Shown piece after piece: positions 3,639-31,316 of a stretch of 32,000 nt of DNA. The notes beneath the pieces are model-generated. The model was not told the DNA's origin, did no database searches, and saw only the letters and a program-made list of their open reading frames with translations. Made by a program: the position numbers and the translations under genes. Source of the stretch: Candidatus Saccharimonadota bacterium (GTDB lineage Bacteria > Patescibacteriota > Gracilibacteria > Absconditabacterales > Absconditicoccaceae); contig OZ246420.1 of the NCBI GenBank assembly GCA_965231145.1, positions 210,001-242,000 on the forward strand, in the 5' to 3' direction. Each line of letters starts with the position of its first letter. Position 1 is the stretch's first letter.

Positions 3639-3669
3639 AAAAAGTATAGCAGATCGCTATACTTTTTTT
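3639..3669 (+). terminator. Rho-independent terminator ending the 3-gene hypothetical operon
   Basis: Stem AGTATAGC (3643-3650) pairs with GCTATACT (3656-3663), loop AGATC, followed by T6 (3664-3669). Confidence 0.8.
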
Positions 3670-3688: not shown

Positions 3689-4126
3689 ATGAGTGAATTC
3701 TCCGCTTTAGTCCAAAGCTATTATCAAAATCCTGTAAACAATCGCGCCATGCCAGACGCGACAATTTCTCGTCATGAAGGAAATTCACTCTGCTGAGACG
3801 ACCTCACAGTTTATCTCAAGATAAACGCTAATTCAGAATTCAAAATTCAGAATTCAAAATTAATTATTGAAGATCGAAGTTATGATGGTATGCCGAGCAT
3901 GATTACGCAGGCTGCAGCAAGTTTCTTTTCCGAATTAATTATTGGTAAGACTCTCGAAGAAGTATTACACATGAATGAGCATACGATGAAAGACAATGAT
4001 TTCATTGTCTCGCCAAGACGCAGAAGAGCGTCGGTAATTGCTATCCTTGCCACAAGGAATGCGATACATGCTTATCTGAAAGATGGCAAAGAGGATAGGT
4101 TTGAGGACTTACTTGTTGAGCAATAA
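3689..4126 (+). CDS. IscU/SufU/NifU-like Fe-S scaffold homolog, degenerate (only the first conserved Cys retained)
   Basis: ATG 3689 to TAA 4124-4126. The N-terminus reads YYQNPVNNRAM...GNSLC-G-DDLTVYLKI, where the Gly of the family C-G-D motif is TGA 3794-3796. The C-terminal part (ORF-track 3890..4126) resembles the scaffold helix region (ITQAAASFFSELIIGKTLEE). The positions of the 2nd and 3rd Cys read GMPSM and RRASV. Confidence 0.6.
3830..3864 (+). repeat. Tandem heptamer array AATTCAG AATTCAA AATTCAG AATTCAA AATTAAT inside the IscU-like ORF
   Basis: Read directly from the sequence. It is a 14-nt unit repeated 2.5 times, 7-nt phased, and contains two EcoRI-type GAATTC palindromes. It encodes NSEFKIQNSKLII, which looks like extra sequence relative to the usual CGD...GC spacing of the family. 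Confidence 0.85.
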
Positions 4127-9343: not shown

Positions 9344-10999
9344 ATGCGGGGATTTCTTGCGGGCTTGGGCATCTTTCTTCTGGGGATAAAACTTATGGAA
9401 GAAACACTGATGCATGGTTCTATCGCGACTTTGAAGAGGATTTTGAAATCGTACACCAATACCATGCGAAAAGCGGTGGTATCTGGTACGATTGTTTCTA
9501 CGATAGCGCAAAGCAGCACGATAGTTTCAGTCATGACTGTAGCGTTCGTAGGCGCCGGAGTCATATCTCTGGCAAGTGGAGTAGGTGTGATTATCGGTGC
9601 GAACATTGGTTCGACAGTGCTTGGTCTCGTGCTGGGTAGTGTGGTTGGGGCCTCACTCAAACTATCTGCATTTGCTTTACCGATGATCGCTATAGGATGA
9701 GTAGGCGAGCTTTTCTTCAGGAAGAAGAAAACTATCTATCTTATCACGAAATCTCTCTTCTCTTTGTGACTTATTTTCTATGGAATTAGTCTTCTCAATG
9801 ATGTTGTTTCAGTCTATGCGTATAGCATCGATCTTGCGCAGTTTGGAGCGCGAGGCATCTTTGGATATGCCCTTATTGGAGTGCTTCTTACTGCGCTTAT
9901 GCATTCGAGCGATGCGATGCTTATCCTTGCATTGACGTTTCTTGCACAAGGTATTATTGGCTTTCCTGAGGCTATAGCGCTTATCATCGGTGCCAACCTA
10001 GGAACGACAATTAGCGCGATCGAAGCGTCTGTTTCAGGGAGTTCCGAACAAAAGCAAATTGCTCTGAGTCATTTCCTGTTCAATCTTATATCTGCGATCA
10101 TAGCGCTTCCTTTGCTCTATCCAAGTATTCATTTGCTTGATCGAATGTTTGAACTGCCTCGCCAAAATGTTATGGCGCTGGTGATCTATGATGTAATTTA
10201 CAATATCGCAGGAGCGATCTTGTTCTATCCATTTCTAGGTTATTTTGTTCAACTTTTAAAGCGTCTTGTCCCACAAAAGTGAGCTGATTTTGTCTTACAT
10301 AGTTCGCATATTGTCATAGGTGCACACCTGGAAAAAGCTATCTCGTCATTCACAGAAGATGTGATAACGCTCATGAAAAAGGTATATGTCTTCAATGCGA
10401 AGGCTTTGGCTATTGATACGAAAATACTGCAAGATAAGGATAGTTCACTCGAAACGAAATATGGAGCTATTAAAAAGATAGACAATGAAAACCTTGAGCA
10501 GGAGTACAATACCATCTCAACCATAGAGGAGTCGCTGATGCAGTTTGTTATGAAAATATTTCAAAAACATAAAGATCAATCTGCGCAGTATCATACGACG
10601 TTGTTTGTCCTTCGTGAAGCGATAGAGCGTATCGTCTATAGCGCCAAAACCCTGTGGGATAGTAAAGGGATCCTCGATGAACTTCGTGACAGTAAGATGT
10701 CGCTTATCGATGAATATCTCCGCCAGTTTACGAAGGAGATGATTGATTTTTATGTTGTGATCGGGGCATACCTTACTGCTACTGAAACTGATACACAAAG
10801 AAAACATCTCCAAAAATACTTCCAGGAACTTACTACTGCCGACGAACATTTCCTTAACGTCATTAGTGATACATTGCCCCAGGAAGTGCTTTCTAACCGT
10901 CAACTGGCAGCGCTGCTGCATCTGTCCCAAGCTCTTAACAGATCTCATAAGGCGATGCTTCATACAGTGAACTTACTCTATCCAGGGAGAACAAAATAA
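9344..10999 (+). CDS. Na+/phosphate cotransporter (NptA/YjbB-like) with a C-terminal PhoU-like domain
   Basis: GLGIFLLGIKLMEETL and the second-repeat IIGANLGTT motifs are typical of Na/Pi cotransporter family repeats. Pieces 9272..9700, 9881..10282 and 10361..10999 share one frame, joined by TGA at 9698-9700, 9767-9769 and 10280-10282. The helical tail resembles PhoU. The gene ends TAA 10997-10999. Confidence 0.8.
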
Positions 11000-11024
11000 A
11001 AAACGCCCCTACGGGCGTTTTTTT
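10998..11024. terminator. Bidirectional rho-independent terminator (Na/Pi transporter on plus, pth on minus)
   Basis: ACGCCC (11003-11008) pairs with GGGCGT (11013-11018), loop CTAC, flanked by an A-run and T7. Confidence 0.85.
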
Positions 11025-11553
11025 ACTGAAGAAAATCGTATATCATGTCGAAGACGGTTTGTTCTTTTTCTTCTATGGCTTTTCGTTCCGTCTTCGAGAA
11101 CTCATGGAGCACATAGTCGACGACTTCGTCCTTTGTAGCTGGGCGGCCAACCCCAATGCGAATACGTGAAAATGTATTTGTGCCGAGATGAGCGATTAAG
11201 CTTTTCAATCCATTATGCCCCGCATGGCCGCCTCCCACCTTGAGCTGGATGAGTGCAGAGGCGATATCTATCTCGTCATGGAGGACAAGGATATCTTCAG
11301 GCTTAATCTTATAGAACTTCGCTATTTTCCCAACCGTCTCGCCAGAGTTATTCATGTAGGTGAGTGGCTTACAAAGTAGTATTTCTCATCCCTCATCCCT
11401 TATCCCTTTTGCGATCTCAGCATTCCATTCTTTATTCTTTGTCCATTTCATCTTCTCCCACTTCGCAAATGCATCCAGCATCAAAAAGCCCGCATTGTGG
11501 CGGGTATTTTCATACTTATCTCCTGGGTTTCATAATCCGACGATTAATTTCAT
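11023..11553 (-). CDS. pth: Peptidyl-tRNA hydrolase (176 aa)
   Basis: The N-terminus [23 protein letters not shown] appears only when TGA (11530-11532) is read as Gly. The C-terminal part is ORF-track 11023..11355 (YMNNSGETV...HAGHNGLKS). A second TGA lies at 11386-11388. The gene ends TAA. Confidence 0.93.
11386..11406 (+). repeat. Tandem heptamers TCATCCC TCATCCC TTATCCC inside pth
   Basis: Read directly. The array is 21 nt and in frame, encoding G-I-R-D-E-G-G on the minus strand. The first TCA is the complement of a TGA-Gly codon. Confidence 0.8.
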
Positions 11554-12202: not shown

Positions 12203-14635
12203 TTACTCCATAACATAAAACTCAAGTACATCTCCTTCGTTGATCTTTTTTCAAACTCTTACTTTCATACCACACTCGTAACCGACAGCGACTCTGTCCA
12301 CGTTCTCTTGCTCACGCTTGAGAGAGGTGATCTTACCTGTGGTGAAGATCTCTGCTTCTTCTCCTTCTCCACGCATAATCTTAAATTGCGCTCCGTTTCT
12401 CACTTCACCATCGATAACTTTTCCTCCGATAATCATCTCTTTTTCTTTCTTGTAGAAGATACCAAGCACATTGAGCTTTCCGATGTATACTTCTTTCTGT
12501 TCAATAACAACCATACCTTTAAGGACTTGTTCTACATAGTCTGTAAGCTCATAGATGATATCAAAGTTCTTCATGGTAAGCTTCATCTGGTCAGCTTTTT
12601 TGAGAAGACCTGCATTGAGAGAGATGTTGAAACCAAGGAGGAGTCCTTGTGAAGCCTGCGCAAGAGCGATATCGCTTTCTCCGAAATTACCAACGTCCGC
12701 ATGAACGATCTTGATAGAAAGATTTTCAGGACAGACGATGCTCTGGAGAGCAAACTTTCCTGCTTCAAGAGAACCGAAAGAGTCTGCCTTGATGATGATA
12801 TTGAGTTGTACTGTATCTCCTGATTGGATCTTCGACATAAGCTGAGAAAGAGCCGAATCATTTTGATTTCATATGTCTTTATCTTTGATCTGTGCAATTT
12901 TTGCTTGCGCATCGCGCTCGCTATCTACGACTTCTGCTACACGTCCTGCTTCTGGAACTTCGCTGAGACCGAGGATCATAACTGGATCTCCACCTTCTAC
13001 GTGCTTCGTCTCTTTTCCTGTCCAGTCGAGCATCTTCTTCACCTTTCCGTAGATGTTGTGTACCATGATGATATCACCAACATTCAGCTTACCAGTGAGG
13101 AGGAGGATTGTTGTGAGTACTCCTTGCTTGCTGTCTTTTGTCGCTTCAAGAACAACACCGACTCCATTTTTCGTTGGGTTATATGCGAGTTCGAGCATTT
13201 CTGCTTGAAGGACAATCATGTCGAGAAGGTCGTTGATACCTTGCCCAGTTACTGACGACACTGGGATAAGTGGCACATTTCCTCCCCAGTCTTCTGGAGT
13301 AAGTCAGTGCTCAGCAAGCTGACTCTTAATATGATCAAGATTGTTGATTCCCTTATCTGCTTTAGTAATAGCAACGATGATTGGTACGCCTGCGTCTTTT
13401 GCGTGGCTGATAGCTTCAACAGTCTGTTGTTTTACACCGTCATCGGCAGCCACTACGATAATTACCAGGTTAGTAATCTTAGCTCCGCGTGCACGAAGTG
13501 ACGTAAAGAGCTGATGACCTGGAGTGTCGATGAACGTAATCTTGTCGCCATTGTAGACGATCTGAGAAGCTCCAATAGACTGCGTGATACCTCCTGCTTC
13601 ACCACTTACCACATTTGTTTTTCTGAGATAGTCGAGAAGCTTTGTCTTACCATGGTCAACGTGTCCCATGATAGTCACCACAGGAGGTCTCTTGATCTTG
13701 TTTTCTGCTTCCTTGTCTGCCTCGAGGATAGCGCTGATATTTCCTTCAAGCATATCGTCGACAGAGATACTTGTTGTCTCTTTTTTCACTTTTACGCCGA
13801 ATTCTTCACCGATGATATTTGCAGTATCAAAGTCGATTGAAGAGTTGATATTTACCATAATCTTGTTTTGCAAAAACTTCTTCATGAGATCCATAAACGG
13901 AACTCCCATCTTTTCAGAAAACTCTTTTACGGTAATGCGGTCTCCAATAACGATCTCTTGTTTCTTCACGAGATTTCCTGAGACACTTGCTTCTTTCTGT
14001 ACTTTTGGTTGTGCAGGAACAGCGCTGTGTGCTGGCTGAGTAGCGCGAGCAGCAGGATTTCTTCTTTCGTCGGGTCTCGCTTTATGAGTTCCTTTTGAAA
14101 ATGATGTATTTGAAAATGTATGAAAGGTTTTGCCAGCGCTTTCTGATTTTTGCTGTGGATGTCTTTCAAATGTTTTTACCTCAGCAGCGGGTTGGTCTCC
14201 CTTCGTTTCTTTCTTTACAAAAGGTTTCTTTGGTTCTCTCACAGGAGCAGAGATGATAACTCTCGCATTTCCAAAAGAGACTTTTATCTCTTCGGTTGCA
14301 GGTTCATCTTTAGGCTTGCTATCGCCGATGTTTGATTCATCTTCCTTCTCTTCTTCTTTTGCAGAAGCGTTCTTAGGTCAAAATCCTAGTCATGAAAGAA
14401 AGTCGTCTCCGCCAAAAAGCTCGTCAGATTTGAGTACTTTCGAGTCATCCTTGTCTTTGTTCGTGGGGGTAGATTTTACCTTACCCTTAAGCTCTTTCTC
14501 TATAAGAGCCCATTCCTCATCTTTGAGATTGACAGCTCTTGCGGTAAGCGTTTTTCCCACAGTCTTCTTATAAGCGGCTCCAATATCTTCTCTTGATACC
14601 TGAAAATCGTTGATAATATCTTGAATTTTTGGCAT
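12203..14635 (-). CDS. infB: Translation initiation factor IF-2 (810 aa)
   Basis: Four ORF-track pieces (12251..12838, 12869..13276, 13304..14242, 14390..14635) lie in one frame, joined by TGA. The GTPase motifs [13 protein letters not shown] and the NKxD-equivalent TKAD are present. The segment [11 protein letters not shown] has TGA at 13304-13306. The C-terminus [27 protein letters not shown] ends at TAA 12203-12205. Confidence 0.95.
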
Positions 14636-14754: not shown

Positions 14755-16542
14755 ATGAGACATATATTTTCTATGCATTTCACTGGTATCACATATCTTG
14801 ACGACCATCTTTCTTTTGTTGCTCAGCGCCTTCCTGGAGAGCAGCTTTTTGTCGTAGGATGAGCGGTTCGTGATATCATTCTTGGTGTTAACATGACGCC
14901 TCAAGATGTCGATATGACTCTTGCAGCAGACCCTGCTCATATTTTTCATACATTGGAAAAAGCAAAAACGGAGGACACATCAGTTTTCTGGACGGAGAAA
15001 TTTGGGACGGTGACACTTATTAACTGAAAGAGCAAAGAGCAAAGAGCAGAATTAAATAACGAGGAATCAGAAATAATCCAAAATCAAGAAACGTGAACTC
15101 AATATATTTATGAGATGACTCCTTTTCGTGAGGAGAGTGGTTATGCAGACAATCGTCATCCAGACTCTATTAAGCGATCTCAGTCACTTATTGCAGATGC
15201 GAAGCGCAGAGATTTTACCATCAATTGCATCTACTATTCTAAATTTGAACTTCTAGATTCTCAATTAAATAAGGAAGCATCATTGACTAGCAACCAGCAG
15301 CTAGCAACTAGCGACAAAGTATGATATGACCTTGATCTATTGAGTAAAAAAGGTTGGTCTTATATACAAGAAATATCATTATTCATTTTACAAAAACATG
15401 AACTCATAGATGAGTTCTTTGCCGGAGGCAAATTTCAGGAAGAAGTATTTCGTTCGTGGGTAGAGAAAAATGATATGAATGTCTGAGCAGAAGTTCGTTT
15501 TATTGTAGATCCATTTTTGTGAATACAGGATTTGATGAACGGAACGCTTCGCTGTGTGGGAGAACCAGAACATAGATTTCATGAGGATGCATTACGCATT
15601 CTTCGCGGAGTAAGACTTGTGAATATCCTCAATCAGAAAATAGTTGGAAGAAATATTGATTTTGAGAAAGAGACATGGAGGTCGATGCAGAAACTCTCGC
15701 ATTTAGTTTCGTGACTTGCGAAAGAGCGTTTGCATCAGGAGATAGTGAAAGTGTTTACAGAGAAAAATCCATTTGGATGGGTTGCGTTGATTGATGAGCT
15801 TGGATTGCTGCCAGTGCTTTTTCCTGCATTACATAAGAATAAACATGATGATCAGCCGGTTCGTTATCATCCTTTTGATACGTATGCCCATACGTTACTC
15901 ACTCTCCGGCATTTGCAGAAACTCAACGATAATTACCTTGTGAAGCTTGGTATGCTCTATCATGATGTTGGAAAGAAAGATCAGTATGCAGAGTATGCAA
16001 AGGCAACAACGAAAGAAGAGATGCAGGAAATTCATAGTAGCCCAGCAAATCATGTGATATGTGGACCGATCTATGCGGAAGAGGATTTCCGTGCGTTAGG
16101 TTTTTCAAATAAGGAGATAGAAGAAATCGCGCTCTATGTTGCCCAGCATATGAGGCCATGACAGATTCTTATGGCACGCTCAGATAACCAGATCAAGAGA
16201 ATGCGTCAAATGTTGTCAGAACTCGGTTATGAGAAAGCGAAAAATCTGCTGGATATCACACTTGCGGATAGACAGTGACAGTTCAATCCACTCCAATCAA
16301 ATGAAGTCAATGCTGTTTCGTGACTCTATGAAATACTTGAGAAGCTTCACAATGAAGAAGGACAGTTTACAATGCATGATCTTGCGATCGATGGTAATGA
16401 TGTTATGGAGGTGTTGAAGATGGAGCCAGGACCTGAGGTGAAGAAAAAATTGCAGATGGCATTTGATCGGGTGTTGTCAGATATCGCACAGAGAAATAAC
16501 AAAGAGACTATACTCGCTCATTTACATTCGCTTGATAACTAA
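14755..16542 (+). CDS. cca: CCA-adding enzyme / tRNA nucleotidyltransferase with an HD domain and large lineage-specific insertions (595 aa)
   Basis: Motifs seen: LFVVG-G-AVRD (TGA 14860-14862), DVDM, RRDFTIN, EDALRILRGVR, and the HD motif YHPFD...HDVGK. About ten in-frame TGAs join pieces 15115.., 15532.. and 15730... The gene ends TAA 16540-16542. An alternative start is ATG 14773. Confidence 0.88.
15027..15047 (+). repeat. Three perfect tandem heptamers AAAGAGC inside cca
   Basis: Read directly. The array is 21 nt, encodes KSKEQRA, and lies within a segment that looks inserted between the FGT and E-x-T-x-F-R parts of the head domain. Confidence 0.9.
15286..15313 (+). repeat. Four tandem heptamers ACTAGCA ACCAGCA GCTAGCA ACTAGCG inside cca
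   Basis: Read directly. It shares GCAACTAGC with the hairpin elements at 23609 and 28981. It encodes TSNQQLATS within the ~95-aa insertion between RRDFTIN and DPF-x-G. Confidence 0.85.
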
Positions 16543-19244: not shown

Positions 19245-19631
19245 ATGGTTAACATATTTGAGCGTATTATAGCACGTGAGATACCGGCAAAGATCGTCTA
19301 TGAAGATGAGAAAGTGCTAGCATTTCTTGATATCAACCCCGTACAGAAGTGACATATGTTGCTTATTACAAAACAGCCATATCAGTGGATACAGGATGTC
19401 GATGATGAGACGCTGGCATATACATTTGTTATCGCAAAGAAGCTGATTCGTCATATCAAAGAAAAGCTTGGAGTAGAATATGTGCACGTAGTGGTCGAAT
19501 GAGTCCAAGTGCCCCATTTCCATGTGCATCTTATACCATCGATGATAGAGCATAAAAATGCTCAATGGGAGCATCATGCGTACGAAGAAGGCGAAATGGA
19601 GGTTTATCAACAAAAATTATTATTCGGATAA
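19245..19631 (+). CDS. HIT-family (histidine triad) hydrolase (128 aa)
   Basis: FERIIAREIPAKIVYEDEKVLAFLDINPVQK-G-HMLLI (TGA 19350-19352) and VE-G-VQVPHFHVHLIP (TGA 19500-19502) match the HIT fold and the H-x-H-x-H triad. The gene ends TAA 19629-19631. No ORF of 60 aa or more is visible under the standard code. Confidence 0.9.
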
Positions 19632-19633
19632 TA

Positions 19634-19703
19634 ATGAGGAGTGTTGAATGTTAAATGATACATACAATATTGTACTCTTCATTCAACATTTCACATTTAA
19701 AAT
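19634..19703. repeat. Heptamer-phased imperfect palindrome downstream of the HIT gene
   Basis: The left arm is ATGAGGA GTGTTGA ATGTTAA ATGATAC. The core is the perfect palindrome TACAATATTGTA (19663-19674). The right arm is TCTTCAT TCAACAT TTCACAT TTAAAAT. The best stem, TGTTGAATG (19642-19650) with CATTCAACA (19680-19688), is displaced by exactly 7 nt from the core symmetry axis. Confidence 0.8.
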
Positions 19704-19730
19704 TATTTTTTAGTAAGTAAGTGTATTAAG

Positions 19731-20183
19731 ATGTCAAATAAAGTAGAAGTTGTATTGCTGATGAGTGTGAAGTGACTTGGTAATAAAGGTGATATACTCT
19801 CTGTCGCTGTTCCATATGCGAAGAATGTGCTTTTTGCACAGGGTAAAGCAAAGCCGGCAGATAAGCAGGCTATCGCAGAGATGCAACAGAAGAAAGATAA
19901 GATAAAAAAAGAAGAAGGAGAAGCATCTGCGACATTTGATGCGATCGCGCAGCGATCGTCTGCAGGTGGATCTCTCAAGATCCAAAAGAAATCAACGCCA
20001 CAGTGACACCTCTACGAAAAGGTGTCAGTCAGAGAGATCCAACAAGCTCTCAATGCCGCAGCTGATGTGAAGATGGATGTCTCGTGGATCGTTATGCCAC
20101 AGAAAATTGATTCGATAGGAGAAACATCAGTTACCGTCGTTTATAAAGGCAAAAAAACTACACTATCTCTTACTATCTTGTAG
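19731..20183 (+). CDS. rplI: Ribosomal protein L9 (150 aa)
   Basis: MSNKVEVVLLMSVK-G-LGNKGDILSVAVPYAKNVLF matches the L9 N-terminal domain, with TGA 19773-19775 at the conserved Gly. A second TGA lies in the linker and C-terminal part. The gene ends TAG 20181-20183. Confidence 0.88.
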
Positions 20184-20241
20184 TAGTTAGATGGTAGATT
20201 TTAGATCTTGGCAGGGCGCTATAATCTAGCATCTATAATCT
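20181..20241. repeat. Heptamer-phased imperfect palindrome starting at the rplI stop codon
   Basis: The left arm is TAGTAGT TAGATGG TAGATTT TAGATCT (20181-20208). The spacer is TGGCAGGGCGCT. The right arm is ATAATCT AGCATCT ATAATCT (20221-20241). The arms are AGATnnT versus AnnATCT. Confidence 0.8.
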
Positions 20242-20295
20242 CATTGCTTGTTATGTGTGATTATTATATGAGTTTTAATTTCTGTATTAGTTTGT

Positions 20296-21885
20296 ATGTC
20301 TAAGAAATTAATAGTTACCCTCTGCTCTTTGATTTTTGCTCTTTGAGTTGTATCTGCAGCTGAGCCTGCAAGCATCACTATCACTATGCTTCCGGTCAAT
20401 GCTACAGCTCCGAAGAAAAAGCAGGACATGAGACCTATTTCGATGAGGGATTTTTTCACGCAGTATTGTAATACGGTAGGATATGGTGTGCCACCTGTCT
20501 ACACACAGATTTCGCTTAAGATCCAGTGAGTAGCTCGTGAGGATGCGCTCTATGGAGCGCTTCAGAAGTGTGTGTATCTCGGTTTTATCCCAAATAGTAC
20601 CGTGAGTTATAAGTGGGGATCGTCGGTATCACCTAAATTTATTAATATTCTGATCAGTAAAAATATTCAGATCGATCCGGATATCAATGAAGATAATACA
20701 ACGATCACGCGTAAGGATTTGAATAATCTCATCAACTCACTGCCGAACTACCAGATGCTTATGAATGTGGGTGCAAAGAGTCGCTGGGGTTCAAATCCGA
20801 ACTATCTCAGTCCGGTGATCAGAGCGGAGGGATTTGGCATATTAAGCCAAGTGTATCAGTCGTTTAAATCTGACTACTGGTCGGGTGATGAGGTAACAGA
20901 CAACGTGCTTATGCAGGGAGCTATCAAGTGAATGACCGATTCGCTTGGAGATATTCATACGGAATATTTCCCTCCGACACAAGCGCAGCAGTTCAGTGAC
21001 CAGCTCAATGGTAATTTTGAGGGTATCGGTGGGTACCTTGATATCCGTTCGTCGGGTGATGTGATTATTACTTCTGTGATAAAGGATTCTCCAGCACAAA
21101 AAGCAGGACTTCTTCCGCAGGATCGTATCATAAAAATAGATGATTATACTATACAGCCAACTGACATCCTTGCTACTATTATTGCAAAGATTAAGTGACC
21201 CGCAGGCACTGTGGTGACTCTTACTATCCAGCGTAATGGCACCAATATAGTTATACCCGTGACAAGAGCGAAGATTACAATCAGTATGATCGACTATGAG
21301 ATAAAGAGTACAACGCCGATCGTGAAAATTCATACATTTGGCCGGGGAGTCGCTGCATCATGGATTGGTATCCTGAAACAGCATACAGCGCAGATCAGTA
21401 ATTCATCAAAGATCATCATAGATCTGAGAGACAATCCGGGAGGAAGTCTCCAGGAAGTAGCTGATATGCTTAGTGACTTTATTCCAGAGAATGAACCAGT
21501 CGTCGTGACTCGTTCAAGATATGATGAAGAAGTGGTGGTCTCAGCAGGAAGAAAGCTTATCGATTTTTCACATAAGAAGATCGTTATCCTTGTTAACTCA
21601 TCGACTGCTTCGGCATCGGAGATTATGGCAGGAACACTGAAAGACTACTTCCCGAAAAATGTTGTTATCATCGGTGAAACTACCTACTGAAAGTGATCAG
21701 TCCAATATCTTCAATCATTTGCTGATAACAGCAGTTTCAAGATGACGATCGCTCACTGGTACACAGGAAAGACAAAGAAGGCTATTGAGCATGTTGGTAT
21801 CAAGCCAGATCTCTTCGTAGAACTCGATCTCGATCAGCTCAAGAATGGAACTGATACACAGCTGCAAGCAGCGCTTAATAACTAA
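20296..21885 (+). CDS. S41 family C-terminal processing peptidase (Ctp/Prc-like) with signal peptide, N-terminal extension and PDZ domain (529 aa)
   Basis: The signal peptide is MSKKLIVTLCSLIFAL-G-VVSA. The PDZ-like segment is FEGIGGYL...VIKDSPAQKAGLLPQDRIIKIDD. The catalytic region is IIDLRDNPGGSL...NSSTASASEIMAG...GETTY-G-K-G-SVQ, with TGAs at 21688-21690 and 21694-21696. Pieces 20572.., 20932.. and 21211.. share one frame. The gene ends TAA 21883-21885. Confidence 0.9.
20323..20346 (+). repeat. Heptamer-phased TGCTCTT TGATTTT TGCTCTT TGA in the ctp signal-peptide codons
   Basis: TGCTCTTTGA occurs twice, 14 nt apart (20323 and 20337). It contains GCTCTTT, the complement of the AAAGAGC word seen at 15027-15047 and 21885-21905. 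Confidence 0.75.
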
Positions 21886-21999
21886 AAGAGCGGAGAGCAA
21901 AGAGCATAAAAAACATTATCATTATATAAAAAACCTGCACTAGTGCAGGTTTTTTTACAATCCTTCATTTTGCTCTTTTATCTCTCACCTTTGCTCTAT
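21885..21999. repeat. Outer heptamer arms (AAAGAGC family) bracketing a canonical terminator
   Basis: The left arm is AAAGAGC GGAGAGC AAAGAGC (21885-21905). The right arm is GCTCTTT TATCTCT CACCTTT GCTCTAT (21972-21999). AAAGAGC (21899-21905) is the exact complement of GCTCTTT (21972-21978). Confidence 0.75.
21926..21957. terminator. Bidirectional rho-independent terminator between convergent genes
   Basis: ACCTGCAC (21933-21940) pairs with GTGCAGGT (21943-21950). A6 lies upstream and T7 downstream. Confidence 0.85.
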
Positions 22000-22001
22000 T
22001 T

Positions 22002-23474
22002 TTACTGTATCAGGATTCCAGCTGAGAAAGCTGCCCATGATTCGTGGTTTGTCTTTACGATGAATGTCTTTGTTGCGTCAGCGCTTTCGACTACTGCATA
22101 GCTTGGAAGCTTTGCTTTGATCTCTTCTACTGTAAGCTTTGTTACACACTCATAGATTTCCACCCCAGGTGCAACTGATGTGTTGTCTCTGTCGTTATAT
22201 GATTTTACTTGTATGTCTACGTAGCAGTTTGTCTTCTCAAGTCCGAAATCTTCATCGAGATTCACCCCCTCGAAGCTGATCTTTTGTGAAGGAAAGAAGA
22301 TAGAGTAGTTTCCTCTGTTGGAAACAAACATATAACCTGTTGCTGTTGGTCCAGGAACTTTTCCTACTGTTGTTGGAAGTGTTGGCTGGGTTGGAGTGCT
22401 TCCAGTATTTGGAGTTGCCGTTGTTCCTGTCGTTGGAGCAGTAGTTCCTTCGTTGCTGATGATGTAGTTTGTCAGCGTCATATTCTCCTGATGCTCACTA
22501 AATGTTGTCGAGAGGATACATGTTACTTTCTTTCCATCAGTATCTGTTCCTTCAGCAGTGGTAGTCCATGTGTTGCCTTTTGCTGTCGTTGTCTGTTTTG
22601 TAATAGTAGAAAGTCTTGATGTCGCATTGTAGCAGAAGTTAGATGCTTGTGCTGATACGCGAGTCTCAATATATTTTGTATTCAATGGGAAGATATACGC
22701 GGATGCCTTATAGAAGAAAGCATCCTTTGGTACGTCTACCATGTATCCCATGTTATCATTGTTTGAGAACCACTTTGTCGTTTCTGGAAGTCTATAGAAA
22801 GTCATGCCTTGGCTGTTCGTGAACTGTTCTCCTGCTTGTGCTGATGTCTTGATTTGCTGGCAGTCTTTGAGAGGGTCGCTCTTCTGGCATGTGAAGTAGG
22901 TAATAGTGATAGTATCTCCACTCATACTTGATGCTGTATCTGCGATCGTGATCGCATTTCCGTTGGTAGTGACAGCGAGCGGTGATGTGTGTGCACTGAC
23001 GTCTACGAGAAGGTTTGCGTCGGCGATGTATGTTTTCGCATTTGATGAGTCTGTTGTGAGAGCTGTGTTTGTGTCGCTTGTGATAAATGACACATCGATA
23101 ACATACATATTTCCTTCATAGCTGTTCACGGTTCCTTTGACAGATACTTTACCGTTGTAGTTCCCGATAGAAGTCTTTGTGCTTATAAGACCTACTTTTT
23201 CGTTACTTGCAAGCTGGAGGATATATGAGTACTTAAGCTGGTCACTTGAAGGCTGGAGTTCTCCCGAAAGGATTACCTCTTTGCCAACATACATGCTGCT
23301 GAGCATACTTTGCCCGCTTATCATGTTTTCACCAGTTCCAGTTGTATTATTATTTTCCTGTATTTTTGATCCTGTCTTTTGCAGATACCAAAGTCCAATC
23401 GCAATGATCCCGAGAACCAGGATAAGTGCTACGAGCGGTGCTCATCATTTCTTGTTTTTTCTTTTCATCGCCAT
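22002..23474 (-). CDS. Membrane-anchored, Thr/Ser/Pro-rich putative surface protein (about 490 aa)
   Basis: ORF-track 22002..23324 extends upstream through two adjacent TGAs (23445-23450) to ATG 23474 or 23468. The N-terminus is M(AM)KRKNKK-G-G-APLVALILVLGIIAIGLWYL (TM anchor). A linker TTAPTTGTTATPNTGSTPTQPTLPTT follows. I recognise no catalytic motif. The gene ends TAA 22002-22004. Confidence 0.65.
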
Positions 23475-23587
23475 GAGAGTGGTGTAGATTACGTATAAAT
23501 GCGGAGATATGATAGTTAACTTGCCCGAACTTTGCAAGCGCACCTTCCTTTCTAATGTTTACATTTTTCTAAAGTGATGCATGGCTT

Positions 23588-23660
23588 GCGAGTTGCAGCT
23601 GGCAGATGGCAACTAGCAAGTAGCATGCTATCTGCGAGTTGCTGCCTGCTAGTTGCAAGT
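23588..23660. repeat. Heptamer-phased imperfect palindrome (GCAnnTn words) downstream of mscL
   Basis: The sequence reads GCGAGTT GCAGCTG GCAGATG GCAACTA GCAAGTA GCATGCT, then TGCTATC TGCGAGT TGCTGCC TGCTAGT TGCAAGT. It is symmetric about GCATGC (23623-23628). Of 35 opposed positions I count 26 Watson-Crick, 5 G-T and 4 mismatches. Confidence 0.85.
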
Positions 23661-23661
23661 A

Positions 23662-23946
23662 TTACGCTTTAATGCTTAGTGACTTAATAATAATAAAGAC
23701 AATCAGAGCTGTAATGAGAAAATCAATACATCTTGCTAAAAGTCTTCCATAGAGAATTCCTCTCCACGAGAGCTCATTGAGCTTTTCTATCTTGAGTTTT
23801 TTCATGGTTGGAGCGAGGATGGCTGGCGTCAAAAGGTCTTCCACAAATGATTTTACTACGTCGCTTACTTTTGCAGCTACTAACAGACCAATGGCAAGTC
23901 CGATGATGTTGTTTTTCAGAACGAAATCGATAAATTCCTGTAACAT
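23662..23946 (-). CDS. mscL: Large-conductance mechanosensitive channel MscL-like (94 aa, short)
   Basis: MLQEFIDFVLKNNIIGLAIGLLVAAKVSDVVKSFVEDLLTP matches the MscL N-terminus and TM1 pattern (MLKEFKEF..GNV.DLAVGVIIG). A second TM helix is present at the C-terminus. The gene ends TAA. Confidence 0.75.
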   Translation of the reverse strand: MLQEFIDFVLKNNIIGLAIGLLVAAKVSDVVKSFVEDLLTPAILAPTMKKLKIEKLNELSWRGILYGRLLARCIDFLITALIVFIIIKSLSIKA

Positions 23947-28971: not shown

Positions 28972-28980
28972 TACTATAAA

Positions 28981-29052
28981 GCAACTAGCAAGTAGCAGTT
29001 GGCAGGCAGCAAAAGAATGCTACTTGCTATATGCCAGTTGCTAGCTGCTTTT
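28981..29052 (+). repeat. Heptamer-phased hairpin (GCAnnTn words) with T-run; likely terminator of the ATPase gene
   Basis: The sequence reads GCAACTA GCAAGTA GCAGTTG GCAGGCA GCAAAAG, then AA, then TGCTACT TGCTATA TGCCAGT TGCTAGC TGCTTTT. A perfect 11-bp stem pairs AGCAAGTAGCA (28987-28997) with TGCTACTTGCT (29018-29028). The first 17 nt are identical to 23609-23625. Confidence 0.85.
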
Positions 29053-29091
29053 TCTTATTGAAACATGTGGCTCTTTCTCTAAGATATCGGT

Positions 29092-31273: not shown

Positions 31274-31308
31274 AATTACGAATTAATAATGACGAATTAC
31301 GAATGAAA
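31274..31308. repeat. Tandem heptamer array AATTACG AATTAAT AATGACG AATTACG AATGAAA (no inverted partner)
   Basis: Read directly. It fills the 45-nt spacer between the BI-1-like gene stop (31317) and the next minus-strand start (31271). Confidence 0.75.
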
Positions 31309-31316
31309 TAATGAAT

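What the first reader, a model, noticed from the sequence alone, without database searches (positions are those of the whole stretch)
23588..23660. Heptamer-phased imperfect palindrome: an unusual class of gene 3'-end element
The 73 nt after mscL are built from 7-nt words. Six GCRnnTn units (GCGAGTT GCAGCTG GCAGATG GCAACTA GCAAGTA GCATGCT) run straight into five units of the complementary word (TGCTATC TGCGAGT TGCTGCC TGCTAGT TGCAAGT) around a GCATGC centre. The result is a hairpin of about 35 bp (26 WC, 5 G-T, 4 mismatches by my count). It differs from the compact GC-stem/U-tract terminators also present here (3639, 10998, 21926, 25486). The same architecture, with different words, recurs at 19634, 20181, 21885 and 28981, always at a gene 3' end. 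Periodic arms allow pairing in alternative registers shifted by 7 nt. Tandem heptamers are known as STRR repeats in cyanobacteria. I am not aware of heptamer arrays paired with their own complement arrays being described as a terminator or regulatory class, and not for code-25 CPR genomes. Possible roles are slip-tolerant terminators, protein-binding arrays, or footprints of a repeat-generating or mobile process.
Basis: seen in the sequence. Interest (0 to 1): 0.78.

Follow-up and report, generated by a model that had tools for sequence, protein, structure and literature searches.

The report
Palindrome built from 7-base repeats
The 73 bases after the mscL gene are a real hairpin-forming palindrome built from 7-base repeat units, but it is a young, fast-changing by-product of heptamer repeat expansion of a kind already reported in other bacteria, not a new class of gene-end signal.

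Summary
Window 23588-23660 is a run of GCAnnnn heptamers abutting the complementary run, forming a ~35-bp imperfect palindrome 3 nt after the mscL stop. Period 7 is strongly over-represented: 11 arrays in 32 kb against 0.16 in simulations, and an intergenic lag-7 z of 5.6. Four more heptamer palindromes sit directly after stop codons.

The element is not conserved. Seven syntenic relatives have nothing after mscL, and two close ones have a different (CGAT-type) heptamer array. More distant relatives (~60% protein identity) have no heptamer arrays in about 58 kb. Heptamer arrays also occur inside coding regions, two of them as loop insertions in the CCA enzyme. Register-shifted pairing is almost as good as in-register pairing, and G·U pairs do not favour the sense strand.

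The best reading is a lineage-specific heptanucleotide simple-sequence-repeat expansion, made symmetric into a hairpin, in the dispensable spacer after the stop codon. The sister copy at 28978 replaces the canonical terminator of relatives and probably terminates. The mscL copy has no U-tract and replaces no ancestral terminator.

Convergent heptamer arrays close to the ends of upstream ORFs were described in Xanthomonas (Rehm 2015). Similar pairs turned up in unrelated contigs here. I file it as a new member of a known, poorly understood kind.

The parts
23588..23660 (.). Heptamer-phased imperfect palindrome. It reads (GCAnnnn)x6 on the + strand running into (TGCnnnn)x5, centred on GCATGC at 23623-23628. 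It begins 3 nt after the mscL stop.
   Evidence: Sequence read. Arms 23593-23628 and 23623-23658 are 78% complementary. Folds. Register profile.
23662..23946 (-). mscL gene (94 aa). The element lies directly downstream of its TAA stop.
   Evidence: ORF. Pfam PF01741, 71 bits. Its C-terminus is 1 aa shorter than in relatives and differs in the last two codons.
23509..23537 (-). Promoter-like site of the next gene (p513): TTGCAA, 17 nt, TATCAT. It is conserved in relatives and bounds the spacer in which the palindrome sits.
   Evidence: Scan. The same TTGCAA..TAxxAT block, preceded by TGTAAA, is present in L084 and L090-L092; L094 has the same block.
28978..29051 (.). Second palindrome of the same word family: AAAGCA ACTAGCA AGTAGCA GTTGGCA GGCAGCA, loop AAAGAA, then TGCTACT TGCTATA TGCCAGT TGCTAGC TGCTTT. 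It is followed by a T-tract and starts 6 nt after the stop of the 1097-aa gene.
   Evidence: (I8). Relatives L084, L087 and L089 carry a canonical terminator at this position. It shares the 17-mer GCAACTAGCAAGTAGCA with 23609-23625.
19630..19707 (.). Heptamer palindrome after the HIT-family gene: AATGAGG AGTGTTG AATGTTA AATGATA facing TCTTCAT TCAACAT TTCACAT, followed by a T-tract.
   Evidence: (I1). Relatives have only a 20-27 nt gap here (gene coordinates; sequence).
20181..20245 (.). Heptamer palindrome after rplI: TAGTAGT TAGATGG TAGATTT TAGATCT, loop GGCAGGGCG, then complementary units. The stop codon TAG is the first three bases of the first unit.
   Evidence: A homologous hairpin is present in L084 but absent in the closer L090.
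21885..21996 (.). AAAGAGC-type array (21885-21909) and its complement (21968-21996) flanking the canonical bidirectional terminator at 21928-21955, between the convergent genes ctpA and p513.
   Evidence: (I13, I14). L084 has a different array (AATTACG type) at the same ctpA stop.
31274..31314 (.). Solo intergenic heptamer array (AATTACG AATTAAT AATGACG AATTACG AATGAAA), 2 nt after the stop of the Bax1-I gene on the - strand.
15020..15056 (+). (AAAGAGC)x3 array inside the CCA-adding enzyme gene. It lies in an insertion relative to orthologues.
   Evidence: Protein alignment.
15284..15318 (+). GCA-type solo array (ACTAGCA ACCAGCA GCTAGCA ACTAGCG) inside a variable loop of the CCA-adding enzyme gene.
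11377..11417 (.). CTCATCC-type heptamer array inside the pth coding sequence.
   Evidence: The Pfam Pept_tRNA_hydro match spans this region.
3822..3871 (.). AATTCAG/AATTCAA heptamer (14-mer) array inside the NifU-like coding sequence.
   Evidence: The Pfam NifU_N match spans this region.
20318..20345 (.). TGCTCTT-type array (the complement of AAGAGCA) in the signal-peptide region of ctpA.

Best explanation
The element is a lineage-specific, rapidly turning-over palindrome made from a heptanucleotide simple-sequence-repeat array that abuts its own complement.

Shown:
- This genome carries an excess of period-7 arrays with many different words, both in intergenic DNA and in tolerant loops of coding regions.
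- The palindromic ones sit in the short dispensable spacer between a stop codon and the next promoter or terminator.
- At the mscL site, relatives have nothing or a different heptamer array.

Inferred:
- Units arise by 7-nt slippage, the explanation proposed for heptamer long simple-sequence repeats (SSRs) by Mrazek et al. 2007.
- The inverted arm arises and is kept in step by hairpin-templated strand switching (quasipalindrome correction). This lets a periodic hairpin grow outward from a seed or from an existing terminator.
- Purifying selection leaves such growths only where nothing essential is disrupted, which explains the position just after the stop codon.

Consequence: the transcript, or the DNA, gains a long register-tolerant hairpin. 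Where it carries A- and T-tracts and has displaced the ancestral terminator (28978), it probably acts as the intrinsic terminator. The mscL copy has no U-tract and replaces no ancestral terminator. It is most likely neutral, or at most a pause site or a barrier to 3' exonucleases.
For: - Period-7 excess.
- All five palindromes start 0-6 nt after a stop codon.
- The mscL site has three states among relatives: a GCA-type palindrome in the window; a CGAT-type array in L090 and L091; and only a 14-23 nt spacer before the conserved promoter in L084, L092, L093 and L094, or an array-free gap in L085, L087 and L089.
- Lag-7 arrays number 11 in the window's 32 kb and 0 in about 58 kb of the more distant relatives L085, L087 and L089. 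L093 adds another 20 kb with none.
- The ctpA stop carries AAAGAGC units in the window and AATTACG units in L084, so the position is shared but the words are not.
- The rplI hairpin is shared with L084, differs by a 7-nt indel, and is lost in the closer relative L090.
- The arrays in the CCA-enzyme gene are insertions in variable loops.
- There are 71 distinct canonical words among the ~95 lag-7 arrays scored across the window, three relatives and 80 unrelated loci, so no single binding consensus exists.
- In-register Watson-Crick pairing is 0.66-0.72, against 0.48-0.64 at shifts of 7 or 14 nt. The arms are therefore complementary as arrays rather than unit by unit.
- G·U pairs number 12 on the sense strand and 13 on the antisense strand.
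- Relatives have a canonical terminator where the 28978 palindrome now sits.
- Prior description of the same design and of heptamer slippage: PMC4692102 and PMC4679880.
Against: - No direct evidence of slippage exists. Three independent assemblies of this strain are 100% identical, so no copy-number polymorphism was seen.
- The template-switch step is inferred from general knowledge, not shown here.
- Five of six intergenic arrays being paired with a complement could also reflect selection for a hairpin.
- The rplI hairpin persists across about 26% protein divergence, which hints at some constraint.
- Why the period is 7 remains unexplained.
- Only 32 kb of this genome could be examined.
Confidence: 0.55

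Rival explanations
1. A selected class of factor-independent terminators or 3'-UTR stabilisers. The long periodic hairpin stops RNA polymerase or blocks 3'-5' exonucleases, and the periodic arms make it robust to slippage.
For: - Every palindrome starts right after a stop codon.
- The copies at 28978 and 19630 are followed by T-tracts, and 28978 replaces the canonical terminator of relatives.
- The gaps that hold palindromes have no other terminator.
- The rplI hairpin is retained in L084 with similar stability.
Against: - The mscL copy has no U-tract on the sense strand and folds better on the antisense strand.
- Relatives have no terminator, or nothing at all, at the mscL, HIT and rplI sites.
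- At ctpA/p513 the arrays are additional to an intact canonical terminator.
- G·U pairs show no bias toward the sense strand.
- Arrays of the same kind occur inside coding sequences.
Confidence: 0.22
2. A dispersed, REP/BIME-like or MITE-like mobile palindrome that inserts at gene ends and brings its own stop codon. The heptamer periodicity would be a property of the element family.
For: - Two GCA-type palindromes lie within 32 kb and share a 17-mer, a 13-mer and the left flank TAATACT, which includes the stop codon.
- GCA-phased arrays are absent from about 115 kb of relatives.
- The presence/absence pattern looks like insertion, and the last two codons of mscL differ from those of relatives.
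Against: - Register-shifted alignments of the two copies score as well as the colinear one, so similarity is at the level of shared units, not a colinear copy.
- The other palindromes use unrelated words, which would require several separate mobile families that are all heptamer-phased.
- I noticed no target-site duplication, although I made no dedicated search for one.
- None of the six hypothetical proteins I scanned has a Pfam match, so none is an identifiable transposase.
- In-frame arrays inside coding sequences fit slippage better.
Confidence: 0.15
3. Arrays of binding sites for a multimeric DNA- or RNA-binding protein that reads a 3-nt anchor every 7 nt, in the manner of HutP, which reads UAG-N4 repeats.
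For: Anchors are conserved within an array: GCA at 23588 and 28978, and TAG at 20181, which matches the (UAGNNNN)n spacing that HutP recognises (from my own knowledge). Three units equal 21 nt, or two helical turns.
Against: Anchors differ between arrays (GCA, AATG, TAGA, AATT, CTCATCC), and there are 71 distinct words overall. The arrays are not conserved at orthologous sites. No candidate protein was identified.
Confidence: 0.05

Closest known systems
Convergent heptameric SSR pairs of Xanthomonas, (GGGAATC)n / (GGGANTN)n, and the GGGGA(C/T)T repeats of Nostoc (Rehm et al. 2015, PMC4692102)
   Same: Both have heterogeneous 7-nt units with conserved anchor positions. In Xanthomonas, 89-93% of arrays are intergenic. 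They lie much closer to the end of the upstream ORF (mean 28 nt) than to the next ORF (mean 160 nt). In 70-75 cases, two arrays in convergent orientation can form stem-loops or cruciforms. Length and sequence vary between closely related species, and no function was found.
   Different: The units here are not G-rich and cannot form G-quadruplexes. Several unrelated word families coexist within 32 kb. In the mscL copy the two arrays abut with no spacer, giving one continuous palindrome. The host is a small code-25 Patescibacteria genome.
Long simple sequence repeats of prokaryotes, heptanucleotide class (Mrazek, Guo and Shah 2007, as summarised in PMC4679880 and PMC4692102)
   Same: Both are tandem 7-nt units longer than chance. 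Both have a phylogenetically sporadic, lineage-specific abundance. Polymerase slippage has been proposed as the origin.
   Different: The summaries I could read do not mention pairing of an array with its complement or a link to stop codons. The original paper was not available in the held library.
STRR repeats of heterocystous cyanobacteria
   Same: Both are tandem heptanucleotide arrays, mostly intergenic, with several word families per genome. This rests on my own knowledge; Rehm et al. (PMC4692102) cite three tandemly repeated heptanucleotides in Calothrix PCC 7601.
   Different: The words and the host differ. To my knowledge STRR repeats are not defined by an inverted-pair design.
TAACTGA direct repeats of marine Beggiatoaceae (MacGregor 2015, PMC4679880)
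   Same: Both are abundant intergenic heptamer direct repeats with a patchy cross-phylum distribution.
   Different: Those use a single fixed word, lie mostly just upstream of start codons, and include only one inverted case out of 170.
Canonical intrinsic (Rho-independent) terminators
   Same: Both are hairpins downstream of a stop codon. The copy at 28978 has A- and T-tracts and occupies a terminator position.
   Different: The stem is about 30 bp, imperfect and periodic, rather than a compact GC-rich stem. The mscL copy has no U-tract. Canonical terminators coexist in the same window.
REP/BIME elements and MITEs
   Same: Both are imperfect extragenic palindromes at gene 3' ends, with presence/absence differences between relatives and two related copies in the window.
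   Different: There is no conserved family consensus, no RAYT or transposase in view, and no target-site duplication that I noticed. The arms are internally periodic and tolerate register shifts.

Membership tests
Heptanucleotide SSR arrays in convergent pairs (Rehm 2015) / heptamer long SSRs (Mrazek 2007) | Tandem 7-nt units in runs longer than chance | tested here: met
   11 lag-7 arrays against 0.16 in simulations. TRF reports period-7 rows. Intergenic lag-7 z = 5.6.
Heptanucleotide SSR arrays in convergent pairs (Rehm 2015) / heptamer long SSRs (Mrazek 2007) | Heterogeneous units with a few conserved positions | tested here: met
   GCA is invariant in 10 of the 11 units at 23588-23660; the first unit is GCG. 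At least four phased GCA anchors occur at both GCA-type loci.
Heptanucleotide SSR arrays in convergent pairs (Rehm 2015) / heptamer long SSRs (Mrazek 2007) | Two arrays in opposite orientation close together, able to form a stem-loop | tested here: met
   (I1, I2, I8, I13). Five of 11 arrays have a complement within 150 nt, against 0 for the control.
Heptanucleotide SSR arrays in convergent pairs (Rehm 2015) / heptamer long SSRs (Mrazek 2007) | Mostly intergenic and nearer the end of the upstream ORF than the start of the next ORF | tested here: met
   The palindromes start 0-6 nt after a stop codon and lie about 27-117 nt from the next start. However, 5 of 11 arrays, all solo, lie inside coding sequences.
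Heptanucleotide SSR arrays in convergent pairs (Rehm 2015) / heptamer long SSRs (Mrazek 2007) | Length and sequence vary between closely related genomes | tested here: met
Heptanucleotide SSR arrays in convergent pairs (Rehm 2015) / heptamer long SSRs (Mrazek 2007) | G-tracts able to form G-quadruplexes (specific to the GGGAATC/GGGGATT families) | tested here: not met
   No run of three or more G in the units.
STRR (cyanobacterial short tandemly repeated repetitive sequences) | STRR consensus words in a heterocystous cyanobacterium | tested here: not met
   The words are GCAnnnn, AAAGAGC, AATGnnn, TAGAnnn and AATTACG. The host uses code 25 and its MscL relatives are labelled Patescibacteria or Peribacteria.
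Intrinsic terminator | Compact GC-rich stem and a short loop, followed at once by a U-tract on the sense strand | tested here: not met
   For the mscL copy, the sense strand continues CTCGCAAGCCATGC after the stem. The stem has about 29 pairs with mismatches. The consensus scan did not flag it. The copies at 28978 and 19630 do have T-tracts.
Intrinsic terminator | Occupies a terminator position that is conserved in relatives | tested here: not met
   The mscL site has no hairpin in L084, L085, L087, L089, L092, L093 or L094. The feature is met only for the sister copy at 28978.
REP/BIME-RAYT or MITE | Many copies of one conserved consensus in the genome | tested here: inconclusive
   Two GCA-type palindromes and one solo array lie in 32 kb. 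Their similarity is no better in the colinear register than in shifted registers.
REP/BIME-RAYT or MITE | An associated RAYT or transposase, and target-site duplication | not testable with these tools
   None of the six hypothetical proteins scanned has a Pfam match, so none is an identifiable transposase. I noticed no duplication at the flanks but made no dedicated search. Whole-genome gene content is unavailable.
Any Rfam RNA family | A covariance-model match at the gathering score | tested here: not met
   No matches in the whole window.

The most novel reading that the evidence does not exclude
This small code-25 genome may harbour an active process that repeatedly builds heptamer arrays with their complements at stop codons. 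Such a process could overwrite canonical terminators, as at 28978, and seed new loci with the same word family. That would amount to self-assembling, self-propagating terminator-like palindromes. Because sister genomes lack the arrays, the responsible factor (a replication or repair variant, or an unknown enzyme) could be found by gene-content comparison.
Probability: 0.15. Interest if true: 0.65.

Novelty: new member of a known kind. Interest (0 to 1): 0.38.

Why it matters
Heptanucleotide repeats are the most common long simple-sequence repeat in many bacteria, yet nobody knows why the unit is 7 nt or what the arrays do. This clade offers an unusually clean contrast. One roughly 1.1-Mb genome is dense in heptamer palindromes, while syntenic relatives carry few or none. 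At single sites one can see the birth, replacement and loss of an array, and one case where an array took over a terminator position. A comparison of whole genomes, including replication and mismatch-repair genes, or transcript 3'-end mapping could therefore address both the origin of heptamer arrays and any effect they have. For annotation, it warns that such palindromes are not conserved regulatory RNAs.

Tried and rejected
- The genome-contig scan with TrxB returned mostly unrelated phyla, with a best hit of 64%, because the protein is too conserved. I used those loci only as a background set.
- The metagenome scan with the lineage-specific p513 protein found no relative.
- The full source genome could not be reached. 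MscL cluster P0001 lists a 1.1-Mb NCBI contig, but the look-up returned only Logan contigs of 35.7 kb or less.
- I looked for copy-number polymorphism between three assemblies of the same strain and found none; they are 100% identical.
- Rfam gave no match.
- A literature search for the exact repeat sequences, and one for Gracilibacteria or Absconditabacteria plus heptamer, found nothing. Mrazek 2007 is not held.
- I first read the two GCA palindromes as about 81% identical colinear paralogues. I withdrew this after register-shifted alignments scored equally well.
- I rejected the idea that a universal heptamer word exists across phyla, because there are 71 distinct words among the ~95 arrays scored. 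The 104 metagenome hits to the 17-mer are by my rough estimate not far above chance in number, although 54 of the 80 fetched lie in true arrays.
- I rejected an assembly artefact, because the element lies mid-contig in three independent assemblies.
- I rejected the idea that the arrays serve as three-frame backup stop codons. Only the TAG-type array provides stops in all frames.

Full report
**The observation**

Six GCAnnnn-type units run straight into five TGCnnnn units around a GCATGC centre; the first unit reads GCG. The repeat finder reports 36-nt arms, 23593-23628 and 23623-23658, that are 78% complementary. The + strand RNA folds at -46.5 kcal/mol (z -2.65). The mscL-sense strand folds at -33.1 kcal/mol (z -1.49).

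The flanking gene is mscL at 23662-23946 on the - strand (Pfam MscL, 71 bits). The element begins 3 nt after its TAA stop. It lies 48 nt upstream of a promoter-like TTGCAA-17-TATCAT site (23537-23509, - strand) belonging to the next gene.

The genome uses code 25. Long ORFs appear only when TGA is read through. Window TGA codons align with Gly 27 times, with TGA 12 times and never with Trp in orthologues.

**Is it more than chance?**

Yes.
- Eleven regions reach at least 15 of 21 lag-7 matches. Lags 5-11 give 0-3 such regions, and Markov simulations give 0.16.
- Eighty unrelated genome loci totalling 1.36 Mb average about 1.9 such regions per 32 kb.
- In the 1.8 kb of intergenic DNA, the match fraction peaks at lags 7, 14 and 21 (0.339, 0.330, 0.325) against about 0.28 elsewhere, z = 5.6. 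Coding DNA shows no overall signal.
- The sister palindromes at 19630-19707, 20181-20245, 21885-21996 and 28978-29051 are real.
- All five palindromes start 0-6 nt after a stop codon.
- Compact terminators with a GC stem and U-tract coexist near 3640, 4130, 8000, 11000, 21928 and 25490.

Two corrections apply. The 28978 element uses the same word family as the mscL element and shares a 17-mer with it. Five solo heptamer arrays lie inside coding sequences: the NifU-like gene, pth, two in the CCA-enzyme gene, and the ctpA signal peptide.

**Comparative evidence**

Three independent assemblies of the same strain are 100% identical. That excludes an assembly artefact but gives no polymorphism data. 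MscL homologues led to syntenic contigs of relatives. By ctpA and L9 identity, L090 is the closest at 87% and L084 stands at 72-74%. L085, L087 and L089 are at about 60%.

The mscL 3' site exists in three states.

| State | Where |
|---|---|
| GCA-type palindrome | window |
| CGAT-type heptamer array | L090, L091 |
| No array; 14-23 nt spacer before the conserved promoter block | L084, L092, L093, L094 |
| No array in the gap | L085, L087, L089 |

The last two codons of mscL also differ in the window, and its protein is one residue shorter.

Other sites show similar turnover.
- At the ctpA stop, the window has AAAGAGC-type units and L084 has AATTACG-type units. In both, the array lies between the stop and a canonical terminator that all relatives share.
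- The rplI hairpin is shared by the window and L084 (TAGATTTTAGAT, GGCAG loop, a 7-nt indel). It is missing in the closer relative L090.
- After the 1097-aa gene, L084, L087 and L089 have an ordinary terminator. The window instead has the GCA palindrome flanked by AAA and TTTTT.
- Lag-7 arrays number 11 in the window's 32 kb, 2 in 14.7 kb of L084, and 1 each in L090 and L091. L085, L087, L089 and L093 have none in about 78 kb.
- GCA-phased arrays occur only in the window's genome.
- The two arrays in the CCA-enzyme gene coincide with insertions in variable loops.

**Anatomy tests**

Pairing is nearly as good when one arm is slid by 7 or 14 nt. Watson-Crick fractions are 0.48-0.64 for those shifts, 0.66-0.72 in register, and 0.00-0.44 for shifts that are not multiples of 7, in the GCA-type and rplI palindromes; the HIT copy reaches 0.50 at one such shift. 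The DNA fold of the - strand even chooses a shifted register. It also means the arms are complementary as arrays rather than unit by unit.

G·U pairs do not favour the sense transcript, at 12 sense against 13 antisense over four palindromes. The mscL copy folds better on the antisense strand. Neither result points to selection on the mRNA structure.

Words are diverse, with 71 canonical heptamers among the ~95 lag-7 arrays scored across the window, three relatives and 80 unrelated loci. That argues against a single binding protein.

The two GCA palindromes align colinearly, including the left flank TAATACT. However, register-shifted alignments score equally well. I therefore claim only a shared unit vocabulary, not a colinear copy.

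**What it most likely is**

It is a heptanucleotide simple-sequence-repeat expansion that has become palindromic, sitting in the only dispensable DNA of a compact genome: the few bases between a stop codon and the next signal.

The slippage origin and the hairpin-templated (quasipalindrome) symmetrisation are inferences from established mutational mechanisms. They are not shown here.

Functionally, the 28978 copy probably serves as the terminator it displaced. The mscL copy lacks a U-tract, and its relatives need no terminator at that site. I therefore rate it as neutral, or at most a pause site or exonuclease barrier.

Rivals remain open:
- a selected terminator class (0.22);
- a REP- or MITE-like mobile palindrome (0.15);
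- protein-binding arrays (0.05).

**What is known**

Rehm et al. 2015 (PMC4692102) described heterogeneous heptamer arrays, (GGGANTN)n, in Xanthomonas.
- 89-93% were intergenic.
- They lay on average 28 nt from the upstream ORF and 160 nt from the next ORF.
- In 70-75 cases, two arrays in convergent orientation could form stem-loops or cruciforms.
- They varied between sister species, and no function was found.

Mrazek et al. 2007, as summarised in PMC4679880 and PMC4692102, found heptanucleotide repeats to be the most abundant long simple-sequence repeats and proposed polymerase slippage as their origin.

I saw the same design in other lineages here.
- An Acidobacteriota contig has trxB flanked by roughly 200-nt GAAGTnn palindromes (L071).
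- Peribacteria contigs carry heptamer arrays, but I did not check them for a paired complement (L005, L007).
- Of 48 metagenomic arrays retrieved with the single-arm 17-mer, 11 have a complement array within 150 nt, against 0 for the control.

No Rfam family matches. I found no report of such arrays for code-25 lineages.

**Verdict**

It is a new member of the known and still unexplained heptamer simple-sequence-repeat phenomenon. Its useful twist is that close relatives show the birth, replacement and loss of arrays, and one takeover of a terminator position.

Noticed in passing
window 14755-16542 (arrays at 15020-15056 and 15284-15318): The CCA-adding enzyme gene is about 20-50 aa longer than its orthologues. 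Both heptamer arrays fall in insertions or variable loops. (AAAGAGC)x3 is 21 nt, which adds seven codons in frame.
   Followed up: partly
window 28972-29060 compared with L084, L087 and L089 downstream of the 1097-aa gene: Relatives carry an ordinary terminator with a GC stem and U-tract. In the window, the heptamer palindrome with AAA and TTTTT flanks occupies that position.
   Followed up: yes
L071:9746-9975 and 10917-11119 (Acidobacteriota MAG); also 3328 with 9264, and 15775 with 15872: trxB is flanked on both sides by roughly 200-nt hairpins built from GAAGTnn heptamers and their complements. Other array/complement pairs lie on the same contig, which has 13 lag-7 arrays in 21 kb.
   Followed up: no
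L104, L105 and L115 (metagenome Ga0075115); L103; L099, L111, L130, L150 and L164: The 17-mer GCAACTAGCAAGTAGCA occurs in heptamer arrays of contigs with 31-66% GC. Several show an (AGTAGCA)n, spacer, (TGCTACT)n design. L103 carries the cyanobacterial HIP1 motif GCGATCGC nearby. The marine 36-40% GC contigs carry larger composite repeats built from GCAAGTA units.
   Followed up: partly
window 31274-31314; L084 about 12444-12490; L018:19964-20003; L005:5082-5125 and 10973-11007: AATTACG-type heptamer arrays recur in four unrelated lineages: the window, L084, a Bacteroidota MAG and a Peribacteria MAG. This may simply reflect AT-rich composition.
   Followed up: no
window 23509-23560 and the orthologous sites in L084, L090, L091, L092 and L094: A conserved block, TGTAAA...CTTGCAA-17 nt-TAxxAT, lies upstream of the 490-aa lineage-specific membrane-anchored protein. 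It is a likely promoter and is the one conserved intergenic feature at this locus.
   Followed up: partly
window 23662-23670 (mscL 3' end): The window's MscL ends ...SIKA* at 94 aa, whereas close relatives end ...SIKTN* or similar at 95 aa. The event that created the palindrome therefore also rewrote the last two codons and the stop. Both GCA palindromes are preceded by TAATACT.
   Followed up: partly
L084:11875-12485 and L089:11841-12620: An extra gene, different in each contig, is inserted between the convergent ctpA and p513 genes. Each contig has two terminators there. The window and L087 lack the extra gene.
   Followed up: no
window 23441-23446: Two consecutive in-frame TGA codons in the N-terminal region of p513 correspond to a single GGA (Gly) codon in L090. 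This is a direct local illustration of TGA = Gly.
   Followed up: yes
L007 and L068; unrelated loci as a set: Period-8 arrays are also paired with a complement array in unrelated genomes: 19 of 64 against 5 for the control. The array/complement design is therefore not exclusive to period 7.
   Followed up: no
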